From contig MGKI01000011.1 of the NCBI GenBank assembly GCA_001795615.1, positions 44,996 to 108,995 on the forward strand: a stretch of DNA of 64,000 bases, read 5' to 3'. Position 1 is the first letter of the stretch, and every line of letters starts with the position of its first letter. Source of the DNA: Candidatus Yanofskybacteria bacterium RIFCSPLOWO2_01_FULL_42_49. Lineage in GTDB: Bacteria > Patescibacteriota > Minisyncoccia > 2-02-FULL-40-12 > GWA2-44-9. A program made the position numbers and the translations under genes. Of this stretch, positions 1 through 11,542 are shown piece by piece. The notes under the pieces are model-generated. The model had not been told where the DNA came from and ran no database searches. It saw only the letters and a list, made by a program, of their open reading frames with translations.

Positions 1-3000
1 CTTGACGATGAAGTTGAACGCCCCCGTGCCGATATTGTCTTCCTGTTGAAGCGAAGTCCCGCTCCCCCATTGTCCCGAAGCCGCTTTTGCCATTAACTCT
101 TCAGCCGTCATCGATAGCGACGCATATCTGACATCAAGCTTGAGCTCAGGATTCGCCATCCCGATGCCGGGGTTGCCGCTGCTTGTGCCGACAACAACAT
201 TCACTATTTTGTTGCTACCCTTTCTGCTCATTAGATTTCTTAATTCCACTTCGAATCCGCCGTCTGAAGTTTCATTGAATTCATAATTAAATTCGTTGAG
301 TACCCGTCCGATGACCTGTTTATATTGATATGGCTGAATGTTTTCAGACGGTACAGCTACGGCCAAACCGTCGTTCCTGCCAGACGGCATTACATAATCT
401 CCTTCCTTGAATTCGCCTTTCAATAGTACGGGGACTTGTCCTACATAAGCAACAACAATCCATTCTTTGTCATTGTCCCTCGGTGTATCCATTGAATTGC
501 CGCCGCGTATCCCTGACTTTGAAGAAGTCAACATGTAAAACGTCGCGTCATTTGTATCTTTGGTGACCTTCCCGTTCTTGATGCCAACAACTTCAAACGG
601 CAATATCTCTTCATTAGGGTCCAGCTTCTTCATCCATTCGGCATAGTCAACAGCTGCAGTTTCCCAACCATCATCATTTTGCGCAGATGCGTCTACCCTG
701 AAGAGGATTTGATTATCGCCCCCATCGTACCATATCAAATTTCCTGCAGCTTGTTGGGCTTGTTGCCATTTCAATACTCCATTTATATAAAAACCGATCT
801 GTGATTCATCATTTGCGTTACTCGAGTCAATCCGCAGATTTGCCGTAGTCCCGGAAGCGCTCTTTATATGAAGTTGCGTTCCCGGTGCCGTCGTCCCGAT
901 GCCGACGTTGCCGTCGTCTTGTATTCTTATTTTTTCAGCGCTTGGGTCAGCTCCGGAAGATGTTCCAACCGTAAATGTAAAATCACCATCATTTGTACCG
1001 ATAGCCCAATTACGTGCAGAGGCATGAGGGTTCGTAATCCAAATATCCGCAACACTGCTGATTGAATATCGACTTGTAAATTTGGCTACCGTTCCTGCTG
1101 AATCACCACGATCAACATGAAGCGGTGCCCCTGGCCCCGTCGTCCCGATGCCGACGTTGCCGGATTTTACGAAAAGCGTGTTAGACAATGATGCCGGTCC
1201 CTGGAAAGCAAGGGAACCGACGCCGTAAAGGTCGCCGGACACAAGAAGGTCGTTTGAGGTTGTTATCCAGTTTGATGCGGGGCCGGAGATGGTTGAAGTA
1301 CCGAAACGATTGTAGCTGACTGTTGCATATCCTCCAACCTGCAATGTGTTACCAAATAATCCGTAAGATGCACTGGCCGTGCCTTGGACTTCAAAGACAG
1401 TTGACGGGGCGGCGCCAAGACCAATCTTGAAGCCGGCGCGGTTAATGGTCAGATCGGCATCCAGGGTCATCGAGTTCACAAACTCATCAAAGTCCAGAGA
1501 GTTGGAAGCGACTCCGGCTGTGGCCCAGGTAAGAGCGCCTGAACTATTGGTCTGGAGGAATTGGTTGGCTGAACCGTCAGCCGAAGGCCAAGTGTATCTA
1601 ATACCATTAAGAGAGGTGACGCCTGAGATAGAAGCCACGCCTCCAAATGAGACCGTGCCTCTTACTTCAAGGTCGCCGCTTATCAGCAAATCATTGCTTG
1701 CGGAGATGTAATTTGAGTGACCCGTAGTTGCCGTCCCGAATCTTGAATAGGCGGCTGATGAGAATCCCCCGACTTGGAGTGTATTGCCGGTTAAGAGGTA
1801 GGAGGCGCTTGCCGTGCCTTGAAACTCGGCTCTGTCGTCGATGGTGAGTATGCCATCAGCCGTGATTAAACCGATGCCGGTTAAGGCTCCTGTGTTAGAT
1901 ATATCCCAATCATTGGTATTGATTTCTCCCGTATCTCCATTGTCTCCAAGAACGAATCTGCCCGCGATCTGGAAGTTGCTTGAAATACTGGCTTTGCCGT
2001 CAAAGAAGGCGTTGCCGTCGATTTCAAGGGCTCCGGAGATGAGAAGATCGTCAAATTTATCAACATTCGAAGAATAGCCGGTCGTGTTAATACCCAATCT
2101 TGAATATGAAGTTGTCGCTGTTGAAAAGCCAAGGGCAAAGTTAAAGCCCGATGAAGCAGTAAGGAGTCCGGTCTGCTGATCGACGGTCAGCGTGGTCTGA
2201 CTGTTCGGGTTCCTGATTCTGAATACATCCTGAGCCTGTGAAGAAGAAGCGTTAATCAAAAGAGAGAAGTTGGTCAATGAGTACGGATAAACGGTGCCGG
2301 TCATTTTGATGATATCCGTCTGGGCATCACCTAAACGAGAATTGCCTTCAACATTCAAGTCGCCAGTGATGTCGGTTGTTGACTGGACTGTTGTTCCGGA
2401 AAGAGTCAGGTTGCCGGCCACAAAAACATCCCCTTCGGCATCAACTACAAATTTGGGAGAAGTGTTGTTGACATAGGCGATGACATTGCCGTCGGCCACG
2501 GGAGAGGAGGGATTAACATAAAATGTGGCGTTGTCGGTATTAGTAAAATTGGGCCAAGTTCCGCCATGGGCTTGGGTGGGATTCCTTGTTGCCGTAAGCC
2601 GTCCCGTGAACGAACCGCTTCCGATGACGGTAAGTTCGGCGCTAGTGTTGGATGTGCCGATACCGATGTCACCGAAGACATAGAGATTGCCTGATATACT
2701 GGCTACTCCTCCAAACGAAGCCGTGCCTCGGGTTTCAAGATCGCCACTTATCAATAAATCATTGCTCGCCGAAATGTAATTGGCATGGCCCGTGGTTGAC
2801 GTGCCGAACCTTGAATAGCTGGCTGATGAGAAGCCTCCGACTTGAAGGGTATTGCCGGTTAAGAAGTAGGAGGCGGAAGCCGTGCCTTGGACTTCAAATT
2901 TAGTTTGAGGGGTAGTGGTATTAACGCCAACATTGCCTCCAGAAAGAACAGTGAATTTTGTATTAACATCCAATAAGCCCGCGGGTCCCGTAGTCCCAAT

Positions 3001-5775
3001 CCCCACATTGCCTCCCACCAAAACCAAAGTATTCGCCGAAGTATTAGCATTAACAGAAAGAGCTGTGTTGGCTCCGACTCGAAGGCCTTTTGAAATATCC
3101 ATACTTCCCGAGAATGATGTTGAACCTGTTCCGGAAAATGTGTTGATACCGCTTGTGAAGAAACTGCCTGATATACTGGCTACTCCTCCGAACGAAGCCG
3201 TGCCTCGGGTTTCAAGATCGCCACTTATCAATAAATCATTGCTCGCCGAAATGTAATTGGCATGGCCCGTGGTTGACGTGCCGAACCTTGAATAGCTGGC
3301 TGATGAGAAGCCTCCGACTTGAAGGGTATTGCCGGTTAAGAAGTAGGAGGCGGAAGCCGTGCCTTGGACTTCAAATTTAGTTTGAGGGGTAGTGGTATTA
3401 ACGCCAACATTGCCTCCAGAAAGAACAGTGAATTTTGTATTAACATCCAATAAGCCCGCGGGTCCCGTAGTCCCAATCCCCACATTGCCTCCCACCAAAA
3501 CCAAAGTATTCGCCGAAGTATTAGCATTAACAGAAAGAGCTGTGTTGGCTCCGACTCGAAGGCCTTTTGAAATATCCATACTTCCCGAGAATGATGTTGA
3601 ACCTGTTCCGGAAAATGTGTTGATACCGCTTGTGAAGAAACTGCCTGATATACTGGCTACTCCTCCGAACGAAGCCGTGCCTCGGGTTTCAAGATCGCCA
3701 CTTATCAATAAATCATTGCTCGCCGAAATGTAATTGGCATGGCCCGTGGTTGACGTGCCGAACCTTGAATAGCTGGCTGATGAGAAGCCTCCGACTTGAA
3801 GGGTATTGCCGGTTAAGAAGTAGGAGGCCGATGCTGTTCCTTGAACTTCAAATTTAGTTTGAGGGGTAGTGGTATTAACGCCAACATTGCCGCCAGAAAG
3901 AACAGTGAATTTTGTATTAACATCCAATAAGCCCGCGGGTCCCGTAGTCCCAATCCCCACATTGCCTCCCACCAAAACCAAAGTATTCGCCGAAGTATTA
4001 GCATTAACAGAAAGAGCTGTGTTGGCTCCGACTCGAAGGCCTTTTGAAATATCCATACTTCCCGAGAATGATGTTGAACCTGTTCCGGAAAATGTGTTGA
4101 TACCGCTTGTGAAGAAACTGCCTGATATACTGGCTACTCCTCCGAACGAAGCCGTGCCTCGGGTTTCAAGATCGCCACTTATCAATAAATCATTGCTCGC
4201 CGAAATGTAATTGGCATGGCCCGTGGTTGACGTGCCGAACCTTGAATAGCTGGCTGATGAGAAGCCTCCGACTTGAAGGGTATTGCCGGTTAAGAAGTAG
4301 GAGGCGGAAGCCGTGCCTTGGGTCTCGCTTCTCCCGTTTATGGTGAGCAGCGATGTAGGAGTTGTCGTTCCAATGCCGACGAGACCAGAGTTATCAATCC
4401 TCAATCTTTCCGTTCCTCCGGTTGAGAAAGCAAGGAGATCAGAGCCAGGACTGAAGAAACCGGTATTCTGGTCGATACCGAATGAGAATGACGGGGAAGC
4501 GGCGGTGTCTCTCTGAGCATAGAAGTATGAAGCTGAGGCGATGCCAGAAACATTGAGGTCTACTCCGCTTGAACCGCCGCCGATGGAAAGATTGCCACCG
4601 ATGGTTAGATTGCTTGATATGCTGGCTGTACCGACTAATTCAAAGGTTGTTTCAGGAGATATCGTGCCGATACCTACCCTGTTATTAGTCGCATCGACAT
4701 AGAATGTGTTCGTATCCACGGTCAGATCGCTCACGACAGAAAGAGTGCTGTTTAGAGCTGCGCCTCCTTCAAGTGTAGTACCTCCGGATATTTTAAGGGT
4801 TTTGGCATCTATTGTGTCGGGGTTTAAAGTAATCGGACCTATCCCACCGGTATTGGTGGGAGGAAGTTGATAGACAGTTGGTGTAAATCTTTGAAGAGAG
4901 TTGAAGTCACCGGCAAGACTTAAAAGATTTATCCTGTTTGCTTCGATAAGGGAAACGGCCTTGTCGAGACGTTGTTCAAGTTGAGCTAAGACCGCACCGG
5001 AAGGACCGACGGTAACTTCACGGACAACTGTTGTTTTCTTTGTTTGGCCATTGGTTATTGAATTTTGATTGATTACTGGAAATTGGTTATTGGTTATTTG
5101 ATGTTCAAGAGCAGTAATTCTTGATTCCTGTTCTTTTATTTTCTCCTCTCGCAACTTGAACGGATCCACGAGAATATATGTTTGAGTGCTATAGTCGTCG
5201 GTAAATAATCTGACAATGTTTCTGAATGAATCAACTATGCCGGCATATTTCTGTTCTCCCACCGCCACTTTTGCCATTTGAGGAGCAACATCATTTATGA
5301 AAGGACGGAGATATACCGACAAAAACAAAATGCCACCCACAAGTAAAAGAAACATCCTTGGGATGGCATTGGTCCTTACTAACTCTCCTCGCGATAGTGA
5401 ACCTATCTTAGAGGATGGTTTTGCACTGTAGGAACTTTTGTTTAAAAGAGCAGAAGAAAGAACATCAGAGTTTGTTAAATGGGATGTTTGAAATTCGTAT
5501 AAAGATTCTTTCAGAGGCCTGCCCTGAACAGAGTTGAAGGGCTTATGAACTAACTTAACGGCTAACGACTGGCGATAAGCGAGCAATGATTTTTCTTCAG
5601 CATACCATCTGCCGTGCTTTCCATATCGAATGGCCTGAATTCGGCCGGTTCTTGCAAGCCATCCGATGTGATCTTTAGCATATCCGTATTTCTCGGCTAA
5701 ATCATTTATGGGGAAATACCCCCTGGTTACAGGATCATCGTTTGAAATAAATTGTTTATTAAGAATTTCTCGCAT
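1..5775 (-). CDS. Giant cell-surface protein, 5' partial (C-terminus runs past the window start). N-terminal excisionase-like HTH segment (…IQAIRYGKHGRWYAEE…), then one TM helix, then long Gly/Thr/Ser/Asn-rich repeats with recurring N(V/I)GIGTT(T/G)P…L(D/T)V motifs (tail-fibre/adhesin-like).
   Basis: Hand translation of the minus strand in the frame with p mod 3 = 0 from ATG(5775) runs without stops through at least 4280 (…ETQGTASASYFLTGNTLQVGGFSSASYSRFGTSTTGHANYISASNDLLISGDLETRGTASFGG…). The ORF track lists no stop-bounded minus ORF here, consistent with the frame running off the edge. All + strand ORFs in 1379..4516 are antisense artefacts. Confidence 0.75.
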   Translation of the reverse strand, partial: MREILNKQFISNDDPVTRGYFPINDLAEKYGYAKDHIGWLARTGRIQAIRYGKHGRWYAEEKSLLAYRQSLAVKLVHKPFNSVQGRPLKESLYEFQTSHLTNSDVLSSALLNKSSYSAKPSSKIGSLSRGELVRTNAIPRMFLLLVGGILFLSVYLRPFINDVAPQMAKVAVGEQKYAGIVDSFRNIVRLFTDDYSTQTYILVDPFKLREEKIKEQESRITALEHQITNNQFPVINQNSITNGQTKKTTVVREVTVGPSGAVLAQLEQRLDKAVSLIEANRINLLSLAGDFNSLQRFTPTVYQLPPTNTGGIGPITLNPDTIDAKTLKISGGTTLEGGAALNSTLSVVSDLTVDTNTFYVDATNNRVGIGTISPETTFELVGTASISSNLTIGGNLSIGGGSSGVDLNVSGIASASYFYAQRDTAASPSFSFGIDQNTGFFSPGSDLLAFSTGGTERLRIDNSGLVGIGTTTPTSLLTINGRSETQGTASASYFLTGNTLQVGGFSSASYSRFGTSTTGHANYISASNDLLISGDLETRGTASFGGVASISGSFFTSGINTFSGTGSTSFSGSMDISKGLRVGANTALSVNANTSANTLVLVGGNVGIGTTGPAGLLDVNTKFTVLSGGNVGVNTTTPQTKFEVQGTASASYFLTGNTLQVGGFSSASYSRFGTSTTGHANYISASNDLLISGDLETRGTASFGGVASISGSFFTSGINTFSGTGSTSFSGSMDISKGLRVGANTALSVNANTSANTLVLVGGNVGIGTTGPAGLLDVNTKFTVLSGGNVGVNTTTPQTKFEVQGTASASYFLTGNTLQVGGFSSASYSRFGTSTTGHANYISASNDLLISGDLETRGTASFGGVASISGSFFTSGINTFSGTGSTSFSGSMDISKGLRVGANTALSVNANTSANTLVLVGGNVGIGTTGPAGLLDVNTKFTVLSGGNVGVNTTTPQTKFEVQGTASASYFLTGNTLQVGGFSSASYSRFGTSTTGHANYISASNDLLISGDLETRGTASFGGVASISGNLYVFGDIGIGTSNTSAELTVIGSGSFTGRLTATRNPTQAHGGTWPNFTNTDNATFYVNPSSPVADGNVIAYVNNTSPKFVVDAEGDVFVAGNLTLSGTTVQSTTDITGDLNVEGNSRLGDAQTDIIKMTGTVYPYSLTNFSLLINASSSQAQDVFRIRNPNSQTTLTVDQQTGLLTASSGFNFALGFSTATTSYSRLGINTTGYSSNVDKFDDLLISGALEIDGNAFFDGKASISSNFQIAGRFVLGDNGDTGEINTNDWDISNTGALTGIGLITADGILTIDDRAEFQGTASASYLLTGNTLQVGGFSSAAYSRFGTATTGHSNYISASNDLLISGDLEVRGTVSFGGVASISGVTSLNGIRYTWPSADGSANQFLQTNSSGALTWATAGVASNSLDFDEFVNSMTLDADLTINRAGFKIGLGAAPSTVFEVQGTASASYGLFGNTLQVGGYATVSYNRFGTSTISGPASNWITTSNDLLVSGDLYGVGSLAFQGPASLSNTLFVKSGNVGIGTTGPGAPLHVDRGDSAGTVAKFTSRYSISSVADIWITNPHASARNWAIGTNDGDFTFTVGTSSGADPSAEKIRIQDDGNVGIGTTAPGTQLHIKSASGTTANLRIDSSNANDESQIGFYINGVLKWQQAQQAAGNLIWYDGGDNQILFRVDASAQNDDGWETAAVDYAEWMKKLDPNEEILPFEVVGIKNGKVTKDTNDATFYMLTSSKSGIRGGNSMDTPRDNDKEWIVVAYVGQVPVLLKGEFKEGDYVMPSGRNDGLAVAVPSENIQPYQYKQVIGRVLNEFNYEFNETSDGGFEVELRNLMSRKGSNKIVNVVVGTSSGNPGIGMANPELKLDVRYASLSMTAEELMAKAASGQWGSGTSLQQEDNIGTGAFNFIVK
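2693..4330. repeat. Perfect 477-bp (159-codon) tandem repeat, about 3.4 copies, inside the giant surface-protein gene. A diverged extra copy lies near 1560..1800.
   Basis: Identical 113-aa antisense ORFs at 2915, 3392 and 3869, and identical minus ORFs at 2859 and 3336, give a 477-nt period. Unit ends visible at atatactggctactcctccgaacgaagccgtgcctcgggtttcaag (3172, 3649, 4126). Confidence 0.9.
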
Positions 5776-5984
5776 CACACAGAGTTAACAAAAACTCCAT
5801 GCAGCGCAAAACAACAAGTTGTTAAGGACCAATGAACGAGAGGAATCCCTCTCTAAAATTGGTGTTTTTATCTTCTCGAGAATCACGATAATCACGAGAC
5901 GAGATTCGCGAGAAAACAAATGCTACAGCCAATATATATATTATAACGCGCCTCGACATAGGGGCGCAAGCTCTAAATTTTAAA

Positions 5985-6095
5985 CCCTAAATCCTAAACA
6001 AATTCAAAGTTCAAAACCCAAAATTTAAAACAGTTTTTGGCTTAAATATTAGAATTTAGATATTGTTTAGAAATTAGAAATTAGAGATTAGAAAT
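5985..6095. repeat. Composite intergenic element, copy 3 (AT-rich module only, lacking the GC hairpin block), upstream of the giant surface-protein gene.
   Basis: ctaaatcctaaaca…gatattgtttagaaattagaaattagagattagaaatt shares both flanking modules with copies 1 and 2, but the 68-nt hairpin block is absent. Confidence 0.6.
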
Positions 6096-6096
6096 T

Positions 6097-6133
6097 CTAT
6101 ATATCTTTATTAAATCTTAATAAAGATATATAG
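6097..6133. terminator. Perfect inverted repeat ctatatatctttattaa-atc-ttaataaagatatatag immediately after the stop of the minus-strand GT gene.
   Basis: 17-bp stem with 3-nt loop, 2 nt from the stop at 6136. AT-rich, so the stem is weak; it could also be a protein-binding palindrome in the promoter region of the giant gene. Confidence 0.45.
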
Positions 6134-6135
6134 GT

Positions 6136-7299
6136 TTAGGCCTTAATTATGGCCTCGAGAGTCTTGCTAGCGGCATCTTTCCAGTTAAACTTAGATGCTT
6201 GCTTTGTTCCCTTTTTGACCATAAAATGGGAGAGTTTTTTATCTCCCAAAATTTTGGTTATCCACAACTCCAACTCGACAACATCGTAAGGATCTATTAA
6301 TACCGCCGCATCTCCGACTACCTCCGGAAGCGAAGAATTTCTTGAAGTGATGACGGGAACACCAAAAGACATTGCTTCAAGCGGAGGAAAACCAAAGCCC
6401 TCAAAAAAAGATGGATAGATAAAAACATCCGCCGCGGAGTAATATAAAAATTTTTCCTCCTTGCTTAAATGTCCAGTAAAAATTATGTGGTGCCGATAAT
6501 TTGATCCGTCTGCTTCTTTAAAAATTTCTTCGCAAAGCCACCCCTTCGCTCCTGCAATGACCAAGCCGACATCTTTATATTTAGGGTCTGTTTTCAGGTT
6601 GTTAAATGCCTTGATGATGCCTACGATATTTTTTCGCGGTTCAAGTTTGCCGAGAAAAAGAATAAATCTGTCAGGAAGATTTTTTTCACGCTTAAAATTA
6701 ATGATATTAACGACATCGGATGAATTAGCAACATCGAATGTCCGCGGGACATTCGATGTTGTAATACCGGAACAAATAACTTCAATGCGGGCGGGATCAA
6801 TTTTATAAAAATTAACTAAGTCTTTTTTAGTTGACTCTGAAACGGAGATTATTTTGTCGGAAAATTTTGCTTGCCACTCCGGTCTCATTTGTAAATTGTG
6901 CCAAACTCTTTTTACCGGAGTTAAAAATTCCGGATAATGCAGATAGGATAAATCGTGAAAGATGGTTACTCTCTTGCATTCCGGCGACAGAGAAGAAATA
7001 AAAAAGTGAGGAAAGAAAAAAACATCCGCCCCCCCGACCATTTTGTCCAGGCATGGCCTATTAAAAAATCGGGACGAAGTGAACAAAATATTATTTGGAT
7101 AGTTGAATTTATATAACTCAACGTTCTTCTCTTTCAGCCAAGAATAATCGGGGAGCTTATTTTTTGAAGAAGAATAAAAAAGTTTAAATTTAATATCACC
7201 ACCTTCTTTGATCAGGAGGGGTATTAAATTTTCAGCATATTCTTCAATGCCGCTTTTTATGGAATTACCGAGAACACGAATGTCAATACCGATAACCAT
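6136..7299 (-). CDS. Glycosyltransferase family 1 (GT4-type).
   Basis: C-terminal E-X7-E region [40 protein letters not shown]. 387 aa. Confidence 0.8.
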
Positions 7300-7344
7300 A
7301 AGCGTAAAACTTAAAGCGCAAAACGAAAAATAACAGCTTAAAAC

Positions 7345-7725
7345 CTAAAATTTTCTTTTCCCTTTAAGAGTTAGGATGCTAGAACCAAGAATATTGGACA
7401 GCTCTTTAGTCTCTTGCAACAACTGGTTTGCCTTATTTCCATCAGCCTTATGAGAATCTCTTAAAAGACCAAGCCAAAACTTACTTTCATTTGCTGACTT
7501 TAGCGCGTAGCTAAAAAAGTTTGTAAAATCTTTTTTAGTGCTTCCAGCTTGAGCTTCAATTATATTGGCTCCTATACTTGTAGCGCTTCTTAGTAGTTGT
7601 TTAGAGATAATCTCAATACTAAAATCTTTTCTATCCAAAGAATCGATAAAATTTATAATATCTAGGGCATAAATATATGCTCTTCTCTTTAACTCTATTT
7701 TTTCTTTTGAGTTGTTGTTTTGCAC
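7345..7725 (-). CDS. Four-helix-bundle protein (the family often encoded in 23S rRNA intervening sequences). GTG start.
   Basis: ATSIGANIIEAQ… motif (the SIGANIAEG signature of that family). 126 aa. The ORF-track M at 7725 corresponds to GTG. Confidence 0.7.
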   Translation of the reverse strand: MQNNNSKEKIELKRRAYIYALDIINFIDSLDRKDFSIEIISKQLLRSATSIGANIIEAQAGSTKKDFTNFFSYALKSANESKFWLGLLRDSHKADGNKANQLLQETKELSNILGSSILTLKGKRKF

Positions 7726-7740
7726 TTTTCGCTTTGCACT

Positions 7741-8856
7741 TTACGCTTTATCATTTAATTTTTCAAGTACCTTCTGCCTAAATACTTCAACATCAAACTT
7801 AAGTGCCTGGTCTCGACAGTTCTGGGGGTTGAATTTGTTTGTATCAAAATTCTTTACGACATAGGCAAGAGAATCAACCGTCTGCTCATCAAAAAATAAA
7901 CCGGTTTTATTTTCCACTATGGTTTCAACCGCTCCCCCGCTTCGGAAAGCAATCACTGGCCGGCCAGAAGCCATGCCTTCAAGGGGAACTATGCCGAAAT
8001 CTTCTTCTTGGGGAAATATTAAAGCCTGCGCTTTTGCGTAAAGACTGGATAGCCGGTCGTCAGAAACTTGTCCTAAAAATTCTATATTTTTTGCTTTACA
8101 CTTTTCGCTTTGCGATTTTAATTTTCGAAGTTCTGGACCGACGCCCACGATTTTCAGAGGCAAACCGAGTTTAGAAAAAGCCTTAATCCCAAGGTCAAAT
8201 CGTTTATAAGCGACCAAGCGGCCAACCATAAGAAAATAATTTCCAATTTCCAACCCCCTGGTTAGTGAATAATTTCCAAACTTGAATTTTGAAACATCAA
8301 CCGATGGATAAATAACTTGTGATTCTCGTCCGTAATATTTTTTGATTCTTTCTTTAATAAAATCCGATATCGCCCAGAATTCATCTACCCGATACGAGGC
8401 CTCTTTATCCCACATCCTCAGATAAGATATAAACGGCGGCAGAATGGCTTTAATAACTCGCGGATACCCGAACTCCTCGACAAATTTGTGGCTGTCGTCC
8501 CACAAAAACCTCGGTGGCGTCAGGCAAAAGCAAATATGCTTAGTGGAGGGTTTTGTGATAATACCCTTCGCAAAAGAAGCGGAGAGAGAAATCACCACAT
8601 CAAATTGAGAGAAATCAAACTGCTCTATGGCAAGAGGCATCAATAAAGGAAATCCCCGGTGATATTTTTTAACAAATGGGATTTTTTGCAAAAAAGAGGT
8701 CCTGATGTCCTTCCCCTCAAAAATACCGCCCGTAGTATTCTTGTCATAAAAGAGAGTATAAATGGGGGCATCGGGAAATATGGTACATAAAACCTGAAGC
8801 ATTCTCTCCGCTCCACCGAACTGATTGAGATATTCATGAACAAACGCGATACGCAT
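7741..8856 (-). CDS. Glycosyltransferase family 1 (GT4-type).
   Basis: EDFGIVPLEGMASGRPVIAFRSGGAVETIVENKTGLFF (E-X7-E GT4 motif). 371 aa. Confidence 0.8.
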   Translation of the reverse strand: MRIAFVHEYLNQFGGAERMLQVLCTIFPDAPIYTLFYDKNTTGGIFEGKDIRTSFLQKIPFVKKYHRGFPLLMPLAIEQFDFSQFDVVISLSASFAKGIITKPSTKHICFCLTPPRFLWDDSHKFVEEFGYPRVIKAILPPFISYLRMWDKEASYRVDEFWAISDFIKERIKKYYGRESQVIYPSVDVSKFKFGNYSLTRGLEIGNYFLMVGRLVAYKRFDLGIKAFSKLGLPLKIVGVGPELRKLKSQSEKCKAKNIEFLGQVSDDRLSSLYAKAQALIFPQEEDFGIVPLEGMASGRPVIAFRSGGAVETIVENKTGLFFDEQTVDSLAYVVKNFDTNKFNPQNCRDQALKFDVEVFRQKVLEKLNDKA

Positions 8857-8905
8857 AATGTAGTACGAATACTGCGAATAATTCGTGATATTCGTATTGT
8901 GTTAT
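8857..8905. repeat. ACGAAT-rich leader element, copy A (short form), ending 11 nt upstream of the GT (7741..8856) start codon.
   Basis: aatgtagtacgaatactgcgaataattcgtgatattcgtattgtgttat shares the core with copies B–D. Confidence 0.7.
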
Positions 8906-10287
8906 ACCGCTGAGCGGTCGGTAAATATTTTGAGTACTGTTTTGAGAATAATCTTAATGTCCATCCACAGCGACCAATTCTCAACATAAAATGTATCCAG
9001 TGCCACTTCCTGTTCAAACGGCAGGTCGGAACTGCCGGATACTTGCGCAAGTCCAGTGGCTCCTGCTTTTATCGCCAAGACTTTTTTGTGATGTTTCTGA
9101 TAAAGAGAAATCTCATCCGGCTGATGAGGACGGGGGCCGACCAAACTAATGTCCCCCGTCAGAACATTCCAAAACTGAGGTAATTCGTCAATCCTAAGTT
9201 TTCTTATCAACCTGCCGACTCTGGTTACTCTCGGATCATCTTTTATTTTAAAAAGCGGGCCGTCTTTTCTCTCGTTAAATACCGCAAGCGAAGCTTTGAG
9301 CTCTTCGGCGTTTTTAAGCATAGACCGGAATTTAATCAGTCCGAACTCTTTATTTTTGCTGATTCTTTTCAATCGCACGAACACCGGACCGCTGGAGTCG
9401 AGTTTTACTGTTATGCCCACTGCAACATAGAGCGGAGACAACAGGATAAGGCCTAAGATAGACGCAAGTATATCCATGGCTCTTTTTATAACTTTTCCCC
9501 ATCCGTCCAAACGCGTTCTTTTGAGTTCTATGAGCGGAAGCCCGCCGACAACATCAATGTCAAAATTCGTGGTCAAGGTTTTATACATATTCGGGATATA
9601 TTTAAAAACAATATGATTCTCATGACAAAAGTCTACCAACTCCTGAACATTTCCTTCCGGATAATCCGGATTAGTAAGTAGCACTTCATCTACTGTGTCG
9701 GTGGTCAAAAATATTTTAAGCGCCTGAATATCCGGTTCTGCCAGTTGATGAACAACCCGATAGCCAAGTAAGGGATTCAAATAAATTTCTTCTTTTACTT
9801 GCCTGGCCGCAGCATCATTGCCAATAACAAGAACCTGGTGAATCCCAAAGTTAAATTTTGAAACAGCATAAGTCTGAAAAATTTTAATAAGCATCCTCCC
9901 GACAAAAACGAATATAATTGCCAATAACCAGCCGCCTAGAACGAGGAATCGGGAATTAAAAAGTTCCTGCCTCAAGAAAATATACACAATAATAATCATT
10001 ATGCCCGCCGACGAAGCAATAATTATTTTAGAAAATTCTTCCATCAAGCCCAGACGGTTCTTAAGCGAGTAGAGTCCTGATATAGCATAAGCGCCGATAA
10101 AAATTAAAGAAACAAAAACTACCAAATAAAAATATTTGAGAAGGGGCAGGTTGAATTCAAAAAGCACCGGCCTGAAAGCGGAGATTATCTCAGTCCTTAA
10201 AAAATAAGCGGTAATGCCGGCACTCAACAGCATCACAAAATCAACCGGCAGTCGCAAGACGTTAAAGAAAAGTTCAGATTTCTTCAT
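8902..10287 (-). CDS. Polyprenyl-phosphate sugar phosphotransferase (WbaP/bacterial sugar transferase family), initiating enzyme for a glycan.
   Basis: N-terminal TM helices plus C-terminal LFKIKDDPRVTRVGRLIRKLRIDELPQFWNVLTGDISLVGPRP signature. Confidence 0.8.
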   Translation of the reverse strand: MKKSELFFNVLRLPVDFVMLLSAGITAYFLRTEIISAFRPVLFEFNLPLLKYFYLVVFVSLIFIGAYAISGLYSLKNRLGLMEEFSKIIIASSAGIMIIIVYIFLRQELFNSRFLVLGGWLLAIIFVFVGRMLIKIFQTYAVSKFNFGIHQVLVIGNDAAARQVKEEIYLNPLLGYRVVHQLAEPDIQALKIFLTTDTVDEVLLTNPDYPEGNVQELVDFCHENHIVFKYIPNMYKTLTTNFDIDVVGGLPLIELKRTRLDGWGKVIKRAMDILASILGLILLSPLYVAVGITVKLDSSGPVFVRLKRISKNKEFGLIKFRSMLKNAEELKASLAVFNERKDGPLFKIKDDPRVTRVGRLIRKLRIDELPQFWNVLTGDISLVGPRPHQPDEISLYQKHHKKVLAIKAGATGLAQVSGSSDLPFEQEVALDTFYVENWSLWMDIKIILKTVLKIFTDRSAV

Positions 10288-11008: not shown

Positions 11009-11542
11009 TTATAAACCAAAGGTTTTTAATAGTTCCTCCTCTTTAAAACCGGCGGACTGAGCGATCAGAATATCTATATAATCGCTCACGCCTAATCTAC
11101 CTGCAATGTCCGCAATTTCTTCCTCACACGGATAAGGAAAAATAAACACACTTTTTTGAATCATTTCAAACCCAAGCAACTTGATTTTCTTTCGAAAATT
11201 AACTCTTTCTTTATGCATCTCTTCCGGAATATCAAAAACGATTAACCGCCATTTTTTATCCCACTTGCCTCTAACTTTATTCTTAAAATATTTTTTTATA
11301 GAAGTATCAAGCCATTTTCGGCCTTTATTTGTAAAAACAAAACAGTCGTTATTTTTGTTTTTTATGATTCCCCGTCGCTCAAGATTTTTAAACCCCACAT
11401 ATTTTTTTCTAGTTTTGTAGCCATAAATATTAAAATCACTATATCTACAACCCTTATAAGGGATCCTGCTCCAGCCGATACCTATATCTCTGACAACATG
11501 GGCAAGTTCTGTTAAAAATTTAATTACAAAATCTCCTTTCAT
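11009..11542 (-). CDS. PaaX-family-like transcriptional regulator (C-terminal domain pattern W-x3-W-x-L-I-V-F-D-I-P-E…R…L…GF…Q-x-S-V-F).
   Basis: WDKKWRLIVFDIPEEMHKERVNFRKKIKLLGFEMIQKSVFIFPYP matches the PaaX C-terminal domain consensus. A Cas2-like fold is also possible. 177 aa. Confidence 0.45.
   Translation of the reverse strand: MKGDFVIKFLTELAHVVRDIGIGWSRIPYKGCRYSDFNIYGYKTRKKYVGFKNLERRGIIKNKNNDCFVFTNKGRKWLDTSIKKYFKNKVRGKWDKKWRLIVFDIPEEMHKERVNFRKKIKLLGFEMIQKSVFIFPYPCEEEIADIAGRLGVSDYIDILIAQSAGFKEEELLKTFGL

What the first reader, a model, noticed from the sequence alone, without database searches (positions are those of the whole stretch)
1..5775. A giant surface-protein gene with three perfectly identical 477-bp tandem repeats and an unusual HTH-like N-terminus
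A run of at least 1925 codons continues off the window edge. It consists of tail-fibre-like N(V/I)GIGTTxP…LxV repeats with three 100%-identical 159-aa units (2693..4123), a partial fourth unit, and diverged upstream copies. This points to recent unequal crossing-over and likely length or phase variation of a surface structure. The N-terminus (MREILNKQF…IQAIRYGKHGRWYAEE) resembles an excisionase-type HTH, followed by a single TM helix. That is an odd architecture for an adhesin-like protein. A long low-complexity, possibly regulatory, upstream region (5776..6135) precedes it.
Basis: partly seen in the sequence, partly recalled or inferred. Interest (0 to 1): 0.55.

Follow-up and report, generated by a model that had tools for sequence, protein, structure and literature searches.

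The report
Membrane-anchored phage-like surface fibre gene
This is a real, very large gene of an ultra-small (Patescibacteria/CPR) bacterium that encodes a phage-tail-fibre-like surface fibre anchored in the membrane. It carries a recently triplicated 159-residue segment and, unusually, a DNA-binding-type domain on the cytoplasmic end, so it is an undescribed variant of a known kind of adhesin.

Summary
On the minus strand an ORF starts at ATG 5775 and runs off the window at base 1 (1925 codons, no stop).

- **Repeats.** Residues 486-1029 are 3 full and 0.42 partial copies of a 159-aa unit, 100% identical as protein. The DNA copies are not identical: 7 variable sites, all synonymous third positions. 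This argues against an assembly artefact and for purifying selection.
- **N-terminus.** It is a confidently modelled Xis/BldC/MerR-type winged HTH (TM-score 0.70-0.77), followed by a linker, one hydrophobic helix and helical stalk segments.
- **Fibre.** The body is homologous to the Bdellovibrio MAT trimeric fibres (Bd2133).
- **C-terminus.** It is a phi29 gp12-type (peptidase G2) autochaperone domain with an invariant D-x-x-E motif.
- **Context.** The gene sits in a housekeeping, Yanofskybacteria-like chromosome, syntenic across many relatives. No viral contig carries the N-terminal module.
- **Mosaic relatives.** They keep the HTH-TM head and a C-terminal cassette but swap the distal fibre.
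- **Leader element.** A tandem ~9-nt repeat found only in the leader of these genes suggests, but does not prove, that the HTH binds its own gene.

Because 477 = 3 x 159, copy-number change alters length in frame; it is not on/off phase variation.

The parts
1..5775 (-). Fibre protein CDS, 5' complete and 3' truncated by the window edge. 1925 codons are present; about 120-140 more are expected.
   Evidence: Translation without a stop. The complete orthologues P0169 and P0182 have 334 and 353 residues after the D of the DxxE motif, against 215 present here.
5548..5724 (-). Cytoplasmic winged HTH, aa 18-76 (Xis/BldC/MerR type, HTH_17-like)
   Evidence: Pfam HTH_17 scores 18.9 bits, E=0.0019, below the gathering cutoff of 27. 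The AF2 model has pLDDT 89.8 with b-a-a-b-b-a topology. Foldseek matches Pukovnik Xis at TM 0.70/0.75 and BldC at 0.67/0.77. It is the most conserved part of the family (alignment A2, 66% mean column identity).
5365..5547 (-). Low-confidence, variable-length linker, aa 77-137
   Evidence: pLDDT below 50. Length and sequence vary between homologues.
5308..5355 (-). Single hydrophobic membrane helix; the core is aa 141-156 (MFLLLVGGILFLSVYL)
   Evidence: It is the only Kyte-Doolittle peak above 1.6 in 1925 aa. Net charge is +9 for aa 1-138 and -1 for the 15 residues after the helix. The helix is conserved in homologues.
4909..5286 (-). Predicted helical segments after the membrane helix, aa 164-289 (possible coiled-coil stalk)
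   Evidence: AF2 helices at 164-192, 205-229 and 260-289, at moderate to low confidence. The segments are conserved in homologues.
706..4878 (-). Gly/Ser/Thr-rich fibre body, aa ~300-1690, with 12 'xVGIGTTxPxxxL'-type motifs
   Evidence: PHROG tail-fibre families phrog_9942 (6.9e-21) and phrog_18345. PDB match to Bd2133 (8ond) at E=8e-9 for the single sequence and 5e-23 for the profile; also 8ojn, 8oml, 8on4 and 8ol4. Motif map and composition.
2689..4320 (-). Tandem array of 3 full 159-aa/477-nt units (4320-3844, 3843-3367, 3366-2890) plus a 67-aa partial fourth (2889-2689)
   Evidence: TRF. The protein is 100% periodic. There are 7 variable DNA sites, all synonymous third positions.
1621..1821 (-). 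Diverged copy of the 67-aa sub-module (aa 1319-1385, 91% aa identity; 38-41 nt differences)
1183..1386 (-). Older diverged copy of the sub-module (aa 1464-1531, 62% identity)
190..699 (-). C-terminal intramolecular-chaperone / autoproteolysis-type domain (phi29 gp12, peptidase G2 type), aa ~1693-1862
   Evidence: Pfam PF11962 at E=0.01, below the cutoff. The homologue profile hits PDB 3gqh (phi29 preneck appendage C-terminal domain) at E=4.3e-6 and tailspike chaperone 28nb at 0.0056. Invariant D, E, GxV and GD columns.
637..648 (-). DYAE motif (aa 1710-1713), candidate autocleavage/catalytic D-x-x-E
   Evidence: D and E are invariant in 12 aligned homologues. The catalytic role is taken from my recollection of the phi29 gp12 literature and was not tested.
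1..189 (-). Start of the post-chaperone C-terminal cassette (aa 1863-1925). It ends at '...GAFNFIVK', which corresponds to the 'AFNIVFEKG' box of orthologues.
   Evidence: Comparison with the complete relatives P0169, P0144 and L010
5940..5969 (-). Promoter-like element: TTGCGC (5969-5964), an 18-nt spacer, TATAAT (5945-5940)
   Evidence: Read from the sequence. TTGC and TATAAT are invariant in 6 orthologous loci. The consensus scan missed it because the -35 box matches only 3 of 6 positions.
5873..5913 (-). Tandem ~9-nt direct repeats in the leader (TCTCGCGAA, a partial TCTCG, TCTCGTGAT, TATCGTGAT, TCTCGAGAA)
   Evidence: The triple 'NTCGNG' pattern occurs once in the window (0.06 expected). 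In 297 kb of related loci it occurs 10 times, all on the gene strand upstream of the HTH-fibre gene: within about 165 nt of the called start in nine, and about 635 nt upstream in L019.
5788..5811 (-). Conserved pre-start box TTTTGCGCTGCATGGAGTTTTTGT, containing GGAG and an invariant ATG
   Evidence: Invariant columns in alignment A5. A related 'GGAGCTTTTGT' box occurs in distant members.
5759..5800 (-). 13-codon upstream ORF (MEFLLTLCDARNS*) opened by the conserved ATG. It is out of frame with, and overlaps, the main start.
   Evidence: Read from the sequence. The same ATG is in frame in L001, L009 and L015 but out of frame in the window and L008.

Best explanation
The gene encodes a protein of about 2,050 residues that is a membrane-anchored, probably homotrimeric, phage-tail-fibre-like surface fibre of a Patescibacteria (CPR, Yanofskybacteria-like) bacterium.

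Architecture that is shown:
- A cytoplasmic Xis/BldC/MerR-type winged HTH (aa 18-76).
- A variable linker.
- One membrane helix (core aa 141-156).
- Helical stalk segments.
- About 1,400 aa of Gly/Ser/Thr-rich fibre built from 'NVGIGTTxPxxxL' repeats, homologous to the Bdellovibrio MAT trimeric fibres.
- A C-terminal phi29 gp12-type intramolecular chaperone domain carrying an invariant D-x-x-E.

Inferred:
- Topology is N-in/C-out. The evidence is the positive-inside charge pattern and a folded N-terminal domain with no signal peptide.
- The chaperone domain drives trimerisation of the fibre outside the cell and is probably cut off at the DYAE site, as in phage spikes.
- The mature fibre projects from the cell and binds a host cell or particle surface.

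Evolution:
- The 159-aa unit was amplified to 3.4 copies by recent in-frame tandem duplication through unequal recombination. By rough scaling from the Bd3182 model, each unit would add about 9-10 nm.
- Only synonymous differences have accumulated between the copies, so the protein sequence is under purifying selection.
- Across relatives the head (HTH-TM-stalk) and a C-terminal cassette are kept constant while the distal fibre is exchanged. This is the mosaic pattern expected of a recognition device.
- The role of the HTH is not established.
For: - ORF and repeats.
- HTH fold. HTH_17 passes Pfam's cutoff in the family relatives P0185 (41.1 bits), P0194 (32.6) and P0211 (30.7).
- The N-terminal HTH-TM-stalk-fibre order is conserved in independent homologues.
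- One hydrophobic helix with a +9/-1 charge asymmetry.
- Fibre homology: PHROG tail-fibre families; Bd2133 and other MAT structures at E=5e-23 to 6.5e-4. MAT proteins are trimeric, surface displayed and mosaic (PMC10769870).
- Chaperone domain: profile hit to phi29 gp12 C-terminal domain 3gqh at E=4.3e-6, and invariant D/E. Paralogous family members carry Peptidase_S74 instead.
- Cellular rather than viral: housekeeping neighbours (TopA, DnaE, ParAB, PGK, TIM, GyrB). The order TIM-PGK-DHH-Bac_transf-GT4-GT4-fibre is conserved in about 17 loci. No viral contig encodes the head.
- Mosaicism: L009 and L010 are 99.7% identical over 11,988 nt, and L013 and L014 are 97.6% identical over 8.5 kb. Both stretches include the first ~670-700 codons. 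After that the proteins are about 20% identical.
- Tandem amplification recurs. P0145 has at least 3.6 units of 215 aa at 97% identity, and 7 of 109 fibre homologues have long near-identical arrays.
Against: - Nothing here is experimental.
- The window protein itself scores below Pfam's gathering cutoffs for both HTH_17 (18.9 vs 27) and Peptidase_G2 (15.7 vs 25).
- Trimerisation, surface exposure, autocleavage and ligand binding are all inferred by homology.
- The distal C-terminus lies outside the window, and no recognisable adhesin or lectin tip domain was found.
- The hydrophobic core is only 16 residues long and is flanked by arginines.
- The exact copy number (3.4) depends on an assembly I cannot audit.
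- The strain-pair 'cassette swaps' also change the downstream housekeeping genes, so some could be metagenome chimeras.
Confidence: 0.7

Rival explanations
1. The protein is both a fibre and a membrane-tethered DNA-binding regulator. The cytoplasmic Xis/BldC-like HTH domains, brought together by the trimeric fibre, bind the tandem ~9-nt direct repeats just downstream of the gene's own promoter. This would give autoregulation, or tethering of the locus to the membrane, and might couple what happens at the fibre (assembly, load, host contact) to transcription. ToxR/CadC and MYRF couple membrane events to transcription in a comparable way. This adds to the best explanation rather than replacing it.
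For: - The fold matches the wHTH proteins that bind direct repeats head-to-tail: Xis, and BldC (9-bp repeats in variable number; PMC5859096).
- The arginines in the recognition helix and wing are invariant, and aa 1-80 have a net charge of +6.
- The triple NTCGNG tandem motif occurs exactly once in 64 kb (0.06 expected). In 297 kb of related loci all 10 hits lie upstream of these genes, including distant members in different genomic contexts (L006, L007).
- The layout is constant: TATAAT, then 18-26 nt, then 3-7 repeats.
- A phage-spike chaperone domain combined with a membrane-tethered transcription factor has a precedent in MYRF/MrfA (PMC3828593, abstract).
Against: - There are no binding data.
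- The repeats could act at RNA level or be bound by another factor.
- Conservation among orthologous loci could partly reflect shared ancestry.
- The chaperone domain is extracellular and C-terminal, so its cleavage cannot release the HTH as it does in MYRF.
- Another HTH-bearing giant protein (L032) has no such tandem repeats upstream.
- The 2xHTH ~310-aa family sits in a SecA-GatB operon with almost no leader.
Confidence: 0.2
2. The HTH-like domain no longer binds DNA. It serves as a conserved cytoplasmic handle (for localisation, docking to a secretion or assembly partner, or retention of the N-terminus) that Patescibacteria attach to many membrane proteins.
For: - The same domain, in 1-3 copies, heads hundreds of membrane-protein clusters with unrelated extracellular parts: 437 representatives at E<1e-10, with lengths from about 100 to 2582 aa.
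- Minimal members such as P0008 have only the head plus the C-terminal cassette.
- The 2xHTH family is encoded next to SecA.
Against: - The fold and its basic residues are those of genuine DNA binders.
- The gene-specific leader repeats fit DNA binding better.
Confidence: 0.3
3. The tandem array, or its copy number, is an assembly artefact: expansion or collapse of a repeat, or strain variants stitched in tandem.
For: - Units that are 98.7-99.2% identical over 477 nt are longer than short reads.
- Most homologues in public data are 'partial' and end at contig edges, which shows that these genes break assemblies.
Against: - The copies carry unit-specific variants, all synonymous and in frame.
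- The array ends in a partial unit that diverges cleanly into unique sequence.
- Independent relatives carry comparable arrays with other unit lengths: 215, 209, 269 and 166 aa.
Confidence: 0.07
4. It is a prophage or phage tail-fibre gene (a virion part) rather than a cellular surface protein.
For: PHROG tail-fibre hits. A phage-type autochaperone domain. Weak tblastn hits to cyanophage and pelagiphage fibre genes.
Against: - It has an N-terminal cytoplasmic domain and a membrane anchor instead of a tail-attachment domain.
- The housekeeping context is syntenic across many genomes.
- Genes downstream of complete orthologues are LeuRS, TrmD, LepA and similar.
- None of 2.9 million viral contigs encodes the head.
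Confidence: 0.03

Closest known systems
Bdellovibrio bacteriovorus MAT (mosaic adhesive trimer) fibres, e.g. Bd2133, Bd3182 (Caulton et al. 2024, PMC10769870)
   Same: - Cellular rather than viral, long fibres derived from phage tail fibres.
- Direct sequence homology of the beta-helical 'VGIGT..P...L' repeat region (E=5e-23 with the profile).
- Mosaic design: a constant presentation end and a variable distal end.
- A C-terminal autoproteolytic chaperone in many members.
- Found in a bacterium that lives on other bacteria.
   Different: - MATs have a signal peptide and a conserved ~130-aa beta-rich N-terminal domain. This protein has a cytoplasmic wHTH and a membrane helix instead.
- The chaperone here is the phi29 gp12/G2 type, not S74 (although paralogues use S74).
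- It is roughly twice as long, and it contains a near-identical 159-aa tandem array.
- The envelope is presumably single-membraned (from prior knowledge of Patescibacteria, not tested here).
- Complete relatives add a Cys-pair box and a Pro/Thr-rich tail after the chaperone.
Phage phi29 gp12 pre-neck appendage / peptidase G2 intramolecular chaperone (PDB 3gqh)
   Same: The C-terminal domain is homologous (profile E=4.3e-6), and it has an invariant D-x-x-E at the position of the autocleavage site.
   Different: - It is below Pfam's cutoff for PF11962.
- About 190-340 further residues follow the domain in this family.
- Cleavage and ATP dependence are untested.
Xis / BldC / RacA small MerR-like winged-HTH DNA-binding proteins (Pfam HTH_17)
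   Same: Same fold (rmsd 1.3-2.3 A, TM 0.6-0.77). HTH_17 passes its cutoff in family relatives. The candidate target is tandem direct repeats of ~9 nt, as for BldC.
   Different: Those proteins are free, soluble and 50-70 aa long. Here the domain is the N-terminal head of a ~2,050-aa membrane protein.
Membrane-tethered transcription factors: ToxR/CadC (bacteria) and MYRF/MrfA (eukaryotes, PMC3828593)
   Same: - An N-terminal cytoplasmic DNA-binding domain, one membrane helix and a large non-cytoplasmic part.
- MYRF also combines a DNA-binding domain with a phage-tailspike chaperone domain that trimerises.
   Different: - ToxR/CadC use an OmpR-type wHTH and a small periplasmic sensor.
- In MYRF the chaperone domain lies between the DNA-binding domain and the membrane helix and releases the factor. 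Here it is at the far extracellular end.
Automatically annotated Patescibacteria 'tail fiber domain-containing' and 'helix-turn-helix domain-containing, partial' proteins
   Same: They are true homologues.
   Different: They are database names only. No family model covers the head-TM-fibre-cassette architecture (NCBIfam gave no hit), and no paper describing it was found in four literature searches aimed at it.

Membership tests
HTH_17 / Xis-BldC-MerR winged HTH | Match to Pfam PF12728 above the gathering score (27 bits) | tested here: not met
   The window protein scores 18.9 bits, E=0.0019. Relatives linked by the A2 profile do pass: P0185 41.1, P0194 32.6 and P0211 30.7 bits.
HTH_17 / Xis-BldC-MerR winged HTH | Fold of strand, helix, turn, recognition helix, two-strand wing and C-terminal helix | tested here: met
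   AF2 pLDDT 89.8 with elements E7-9, H10-17, H21-30, E35-38, E43-47, H48-60. Foldseek: Xis 4j2n at TM 0.70/0.75 and rmsd 1.3 A; BldC 6amk at 0.67/0.77; RacA at 0.67/0.61; SoxR at 0.63 normalised to the query (0.36 to the target).
HTH_17 / Xis-BldC-MerR winged HTH | Sequence-specific DNA binding | not testable with these tools
   The evidence is only circumstantial: basic invariant residues and gene-specific tandem repeats in the leader.
Bdellovibrio MAT fibre family | Beta-helical trimeric fibre repeats with the V-G-x-x-x-x-P-x-x-x-L capping-loop motif | tested here: met
   Sequence homology to the solved MAT structures 8ond, 8ojn, 8oml, 8on4 and 8ol4. There are 12 such motifs in the protein. 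Trimeric state itself was not tested.
Bdellovibrio MAT fibre family | Signal peptide followed by the conserved ~130-aa beta-rich N-terminal domain | tested here: not met
   The N-terminus is wHTH + linker + membrane helix + helices.
Bdellovibrio MAT fibre family | C-terminal S74 chaperone or an alternative adhesive tip | tested here: inconclusive
   The window protein has no S74 hit. It has a G2-type chaperone instead. The relatives P0134, P0138 and P0144 have S74. The extreme C-terminus lies outside the window.
Peptidase G2 / phi29 gp12 intramolecular chaperone | Match to Pfam PF11962 above the gathering score (25 bits) | tested here: not met
   15.7 bits, E=0.01, covering only profile positions 159-194.
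Peptidase G2 / phi29 gp12 intramolecular chaperone | Homology to the solved gp12 C-terminal autochaperone domain | tested here: met
   The profile of 12 homologues hits 3gqh at E=4.3e-6, and tailspike chaperone 28nb at E=0.0056.
Peptidase G2 / phi29 gp12 intramolecular chaperone | Conserved Asp and Glu (D-x-x-E) at the cleavage site | tested here: met
   DYAE at aa 1710-1713. D and E are invariant columns. Assigning them as catalytic rests on my recollection of the gp12 literature.
Peptidase G2 / phi29 gp12 intramolecular chaperone | Autoproteolytic release after trimerisation | not testable with these tools
   This needs expression of the C-terminal fragment and of D1710A and E1713A mutants.
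Phage virion tail fibre | Encoded in a phage or prophage next to tail/baseplate genes, with an N-terminal tail-attachment domain | tested here: not met
   The neighbours are housekeeping genes and the locus is syntenic. No viral contig carries the head. The window's downstream side is not visible.
MYRF-type membrane-tethered transcription factor | Domain order: DNA-binding domain, then chaperone (ICA) domain, then membrane helix, so that cleavage frees the factor | tested here: not met
   The order here is HTH, membrane helix, fibre, chaperone.
Sortase-anchored (LPXTG) Gram-positive surface protein | C-terminal LPXTG, hydrophobic stretch and basic tail | tested here: not met
   Complete relatives end in a Pro/Thr/Glu-rich tail with no LPXTG and no hydrophobic end. 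The window's own C-terminus is missing.

The most novel reading that the evidence does not exclude
A surface fibre of about 2,000 residues derived from phage tail fibres is physically continuous, through one membrane helix, with a Xis/BldC-type DNA-binding domain. That domain sits on tandem repeats in the leader of its own gene. If so, Patescibacteria would have a one-protein device that links events at the tip of a host-binding fibre (assembly, tension, host contact) to the chromosome: autoregulation, contact-dependent transcription, or membrane tethering of the locus. The wider HTH(1-3)-TM family (hundreds of clusters) would then be a CPR-specific class of membrane-tethered DNA-binding proteins.
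Probability: 0.15. Interest if true: 0.85.

Novelty: new variant of a known kind. Interest (0 to 1): 0.6.

Why it matters
How most Patescibacteria (outside the Saccharibacteria, where type IV pili are implicated) recognise and hold on to their hosts is unknown. This locus gives a concrete candidate, and it has the features expected of a recognition device:
- It is a long, mosaic, MAT-like fibre with a constant anchoring end and an exchangeable distal end.
- It sits at a conserved chromosomal position next to a sugar-transferase operon.
- Its length can be tuned by in-frame tandem duplication.

The cytoplasmic Xis/BldC-type domain, together with a leader repeat element found only at these genes, makes a specific hypothesis directly testable with a 60-80-residue domain and a 40-bp DNA: a membrane-tethered DNA-binding head on a surface fibre.

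There is also a practical point. These genes systematically break short-read assemblies, so their diversity is under-counted in CPR genomes.

Tried and rejected
- NCBIfam scan of the whole protein: no family.
- Pfam DUF6501 hit (24.6 bits, no single stretch passing, at the unit junction): treated as a summed repeat artefact.
- Rfam on 5600-6300 at E<=1: nothing.
- The sigma-70 consensus scan found no promoter because the -35 box is TTGCGC. The promoter-like element was identified by conservation instead.
- Same-population copy-number variants could not be found. The best hit of the metagenome scan with the head was 60% identical. The best alignment of the 5.8-billion-protein search with the array plus flanks was 81% identical over 20% of the query, and 52% over 56% for the top-scoring hit. 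The single genome-contig scan returned only truncated Yanofskybacteria/Saccharibacteria loci.
- Look-up of the closest arrayed relative P0145: not on record.
- Diversity-generating retroelement idea, prompted by the 23S-IVP/Avd-like gene next door: no reverse transcriptase in the scanned window ORFs, only an RNase H/RVT_3-like 150-aa protein, and no template/variable repeat pair in 1-6200. Dropped.
- Test of whether other HTH-headed proteins have leader repeats. L032 has dispersed CCGATAC motifs but no tandem array. The 2xHTH family has almost no leader. Inconclusive.
- The AF2 model of aa 1-308 is confident only for the HTH, so nothing is claimed from the rest beyond helix positions.
- Prophage reading: rejected.
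- On/off phase variation: rejected on arithmetic (477 = 3 x 159).


Full report

The gene is on the minus strand. Reverse-complementing 1..5775 gives 1925 sense codons starting MREILNKQF at ATG 5775-5773. An in-frame TAA lies four codons upstream. There is no stop before base 1, so the 3' end is cut by the window.

Tandem Repeats Finder reports a 477-nt period, 3.4 copies, at 2688-4321. At protein level, residues 486-1029 are perfectly periodic at 159 aa. That is three identical units (nt 4320-3844, 3843-3367, 3366-2890) and an identical 67-residue partial fourth (2889-2689).

The title claim of 'perfectly identical 477-bp' units is wrong at DNA level. The copies differ at seven sites (unit positions 6, 9, 12, 15, 177, 429, 477). 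Every one is a third codon position and synonymous. If about a quarter of random substitutions are synonymous, seven out of seven has a probability near 5e-5. It is about 0.004 if the four clustered changes count as one event. This is my own estimate.

The copies are therefore distinct, real and under purifying selection, which an assembler-made duplication would not show.

Each unit is a 67-aa 'QGTASASY...ASISG' sub-module plus a 92-aa sub-module. Older copies of the first sub-module lie at aa 1319 (91% identity), 1464 (62%) and 1216 (56%).

**2. Anatomy of the protein**

*N-terminus.*
- Pfam HTH_17 matches residues 23-70 weakly: 18.9 bits, E=0.0019, against a cutoff of 27.
- AlphaFold2 on an 11-sequence alignment models residues ~18-76 at pLDDT 89.8, as strand, helix, helix, two-strand wing, helix.
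- The best structural matches are mycobacteriophage Pukovnik Xis (rmsd 1.3 A, TM 0.70/0.75), BldC (0.67/0.77), RacA and SoxR.

*Membrane anchor.* After a low-confidence linker comes the only strongly hydrophobic segment in the protein, with its core at aa 141-156. Residues 1-138 carry net charge +9, and the flank after the helix carries -1. This fits an N-in/C-out signal anchor. AF2 then places helices at 164-192, 205-229 and 260-289, with modest confidence.

*Fibre body.*
- About 1,400 residues are 14% Gly, 13% Ser and 13% Thr, with no cysteine, and contain 12 'VGIGT'-type motifs.
- The region hits PHROG tail-fibre families (6.9e-21).
- In the PDB it hits the Bdellovibrio bacteriovorus fibre proteins: Bd2133 (8ond) at E=8e-9 with the single sequence and 5e-23 with a profile, plus 8ojn, 8oml, 8on4 and 8ol4.
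- These are the MAT 'mosaic adhesive trimer' fibres. They are trimeric, surface displayed, and have diverse tips (PMC10769870).

*C-terminus.*
- Residues ~1693-1862 weakly match Peptidase_G2 (PF11962, E=0.01).
- A profile of 12 homologues hits the phi29 gp12 C-terminal autochaperone domain (3gqh, E=4.3e-6) and a tailspike chaperone (28nb, E=0.0056).
- The D and E of DYAE (aa 1710-1713) are invariant in the alignment.
- That these two residues are the autocleavage dyad of gp12 is my recollection of the literature, not a test made here.

**3. Is the head part of the same protein, and how big is the family?**

Homologues of the first 308 residues keep the same order of HTH, linker, membrane helix, helices and fibre start. 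The fusion is therefore conserved and is not a mis-called start.

An exhaustive HMMER search with the 61-position HTH profile found 2,053 cluster representatives at E<=1e-3 and 437 at E<=1e-10. Among the best 150 listed, the domain lies near the N-terminus in nearly all, in one to three copies, and in proteins up to 2582 aa. HTH_17 passes Pfam's cutoff in several of them.

Complete members (P0134, P0138, P0144, P0169, P0182, and the genes in L009, L010, L013 and L014) share this plan:
- HTH, one or two copies.
- Membrane helix.
- Stalk.
- Fibre.
- Chaperone, either S74 type or G2 type.
- An 'IVFExG' box.
- A Cys pair.
- A Pro/Thr-rich tail.

Minimal members (P0008, P0011) join the head almost directly to the C-terminal cassette.

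The window protein ends at '...GAFNFIVK', at the 'AFNIVFEKG' box. In P0169 and P0182 there are 334 and 353 residues after the D of DxxE, against 215 here. About 120-140 residues are therefore missing, and the full protein is about 2,050 aa.

**4. Cellular or viral?**

The window is a bacterial chromosome. It carries topoisomerase I, DnaE, ParA/ParB, RelA/SpoT, DprA, GyrB, PGK, TIM, GatB and several aminoacyl-tRNA synthetases.

The order TIM, PGK, DHH, Bac_transf, GT4, GT4, fibre gene recurs in about 17 fetched loci. Their housekeeping proteins are only 50-88% identical to the window's. Several of the loci are named Candidatus Yanofskybacteria. P0169 (1813 aa, complete) is the gene at the same position in one of them.

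None of 2.9 million viral contigs encodes the head. Phage genomes give only weak fibre-repeat hits. This is a cellular gene built from phage-fibre parts.

**5. Variation**

Two pairs of near-identical loci from different samples diverge abruptly inside the gene.
- L009 and L010 are 99.7% identical over 11,988 nt: 10 kb upstream plus about 670 codons.
- L013 and L014 are 97.6% identical over 8.5 kb.
- After these stretches the proteins are about 20% identical.

This is the constant-head, variable-distal mosaic expected of a recognition fibre. However, the downstream housekeeping genes also differ within each pair. Rearrangement at the gene or metagenome chimeras cannot be excluded.

Long near-identical tandem arrays recur in the family with other unit lengths:
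- P0145, the closest head homologue, has at least 3.6 units of 215 aa at 97% identity.
- 7 of 109 fibre homologues have such arrays.

Since 477 = 3 x 159, copy-number change is in frame. It alters length and cannot act as an on/off phase switch.

By rough scaling from the ~550 A model of the 922-aa Bd3182, one unit would add about 9-10 nm. This is an inference.

No near-identical sequence exists in the searched collections, so heterogeneity within the same population could not be tested.

**6. The upstream region**

The AT-rich TTAGAAA heptads (6067-6096) are not conserved in the orthologous locus L001. Closer to the gene, six orthologous loci whose heads are only 44-60% identical share invariant non-coding blocks:
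- TTGC, then 17-18 nt, then TATAAT. In the window these are at 5969-5964 and 5945-5940.
- A run of 4-7 tandem ~9-nt repeats (TCTCGTGAW). In the window it spans 5913-5873.
- A 'GCATGGAGTTTTTGT' box at 5811-5788.

Distant members in other genomic contexts (L005, L002, L006, L007, L028) keep the same layout with variant cores such as ATATCGCG and TGTCGNNN.

A triple 'NTCGNG' pattern with 8-10-nt spacing occurs once in the 64-kb window, against 0.06 expected from Markov shuffles. It occurs ten times in 297 kb of fetched loci, always on the gene's strand upstream of an HTH-fibre gene. Nine of these lie within about 165 nt of the called start, and one lies about 635 nt upstream, in L019. Rfam has no match.

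BldC, one of the two closest folds, binds 9-bp direct repeats head-to-tail in variable number (PMC5859096). It is therefore a reasonable, untested hypothesis that the head binds its own leader.

The counter-tests were inconclusive. L032 has no tandem array, and the 2xHTH ~310-aa family lies in a SecA-GatB operon with hardly any leader.

**7. Most likely mechanism**

*Shown:* the domain order, the homologies, the conserved fusion, the chromosomal context, and the synonymous-only divergence of the repeats.

*Inferred:*
- The N-terminal domain stays in the cytoplasm.
- The helix anchors the protein.
- The rest is exported.
- The C-terminal chaperone nucleates trimerisation and is probably cleaved at DYAE.
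- The fibre projects from the cell and binds a partner surface.
- The distal part is exchanged by recombination, and the length changes by unequal crossing-over.

The neighbouring sugar-transferase operon and the 26% Ser+Thr content make glycosylation of the fibre conceivable. This is only a guess from synteny.

**8. Comparison and novelty**

It works like a Bdellovibrio MAT fibre and shares its repeat region by homology. It fails the MAT N-terminal criterion (signal peptide plus beta-rich domain) and uses a different chaperone type.

It is not a virion fibre, not a sortase substrate, and not a MYRF-type factor because the domain order differs (PMC3828593).

Database names for homologues are 'hypothetical', 'helix-turn-helix domain-containing, partial', 'tail fiber domain-containing', and some mis-annotations such as 'TonB-dependent receptor'. 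Four literature searches aimed at this found no description of the architecture.

I rate it a new variant of a known kind, with interest 0.6. The most novel reading still open is a fibre that is also a membrane-tethered DNA-binding protein acting on its own leader. I give it a probability of about 0.15.

Noticed in passing
window 5873-5969 (minus strand); also L001, L003, L005-L010, L012, L019, L022, L028 upstream of the gene: There is a promoter-like TTGC-N17/18-TATAAT followed by 3-7 tandem 8-10-nt repeats with a TCG core. The triple motif occurs only in the leaders of HTH-TM-fibre genes: 1 hit in 64 kb against 0.06 expected, and 10 of 10 hits in 297 kb of loci upstream of these genes.
   Followed up: partly
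window 5759-5800 (minus strand): The invariant ATG in the conserved 'GCATGGAG' box is in frame with the gene in L001, L009 and L015 (MEFL...MREI...). It is one base out of frame in the window and in L008, where it opens a 13-codon uORF overlapping the main ATG. Either the box is a non-coding signal or start usage differs between relatives.
   Followed up: partly
L009 vs L010; L013 vs L014: Pairs of loci from different samples are 99.7% and 97.6% identical for 8-12 kb, up to about codon 670-700 of the fibre gene. After that they are unrelated, including different downstream housekeeping genes (LeuRS/TrmD vs DUF4012/LepA; RmuC/H+-PPase vs IleRS/S51). This is either a recombination or rearrangement hotspot, or chimeric assembly.
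   Followed up: partly
window 6136-10287 (minus strand) and about 17 related loci: A sugar-phosphate transferase (Bac_transf) and two GT4 glycosyltransferases always lie directly upstream of the fibre gene on the same strand, even where PGK is only 53% identical. This may indicate a functional link, such as glycosylation of the Ser/Thr-rich fibre or envelope synthesis.
   Followed up: partly
window 7345-7725 (minus strand): A 23S-rRNA-intervening-sequence-protein gene (PF05635) sits between the two GT4 genes here. It is absent at that spot in L001, where the GT4 genes abut. A homologue lies just downstream of the fibre gene in L009. It behaves like a small mobile insertion. No reverse transcriptase or template/variable repeat pair was seen nearby.
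   Followed up: partly
relatives P0134, P0138, P0144, P0169, P0182, L009, L010, L013, L014; P0008, P0011: All complete family members end in a conserved cassette after the chaperone domain: an 'IVFExG' box, a Cys pair ('LCVxxxCVTExxLKxLL' or 'YCIxxxNGxxVTTPGxC') and an 80-130-aa Pro/Thr/Glu-rich tail. No Pfam model reported a match to the box or the Cys pair in the members scanned. Short proteins exist that have only the head and this cassette.
   Followed up: partly
L033, L034, L035 (proteins P0185, P0200): A separate ~310-aa family with two tandem HTH_17 domains, a linker and one membrane helix is encoded directly after SecA and GatB. In L033 and L034 it is followed by a giant ORF (2318 aa and >1393 aa).
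   Followed up: partly
L007 3-3761 (minus strand): A second giant protein (>1250 aa) with a more distant copy of the HTH head (E=1.9e-9) lies divergently upstream of P0138, separated from it by two housekeeping genes (RNase HII, SpoU methylase). Some genomes therefore carry several such proteins.
   Followed up: no
window 1-6000 vs the rest: The fibre gene has 44-49% G+C, against 36-43% in the adjacent 6-18 kb. I did not separate an amino-acid composition effect (Gly/Ala/Ser/Thr codons) from foreign origin.
   Followed up: no
window 53671-56289 (minus strand): This is another large putative surface protein (872 aa) with PKD, Big_7, Ig and InlB B-repeat-like domains.
   Followed up: no
window 11009-11542 (minus strand): A 177-aa protein with a PaaX central / Cas2-like domain, conserved at the same position in L001 (84% identity). 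No CRISPR array was looked for.
   Followed up: no
L006 14036-16042: In the distant family member P0182, the gene immediately downstream encodes a 668-aa protein with a T4SS_pilin domain.
   Followed up: no
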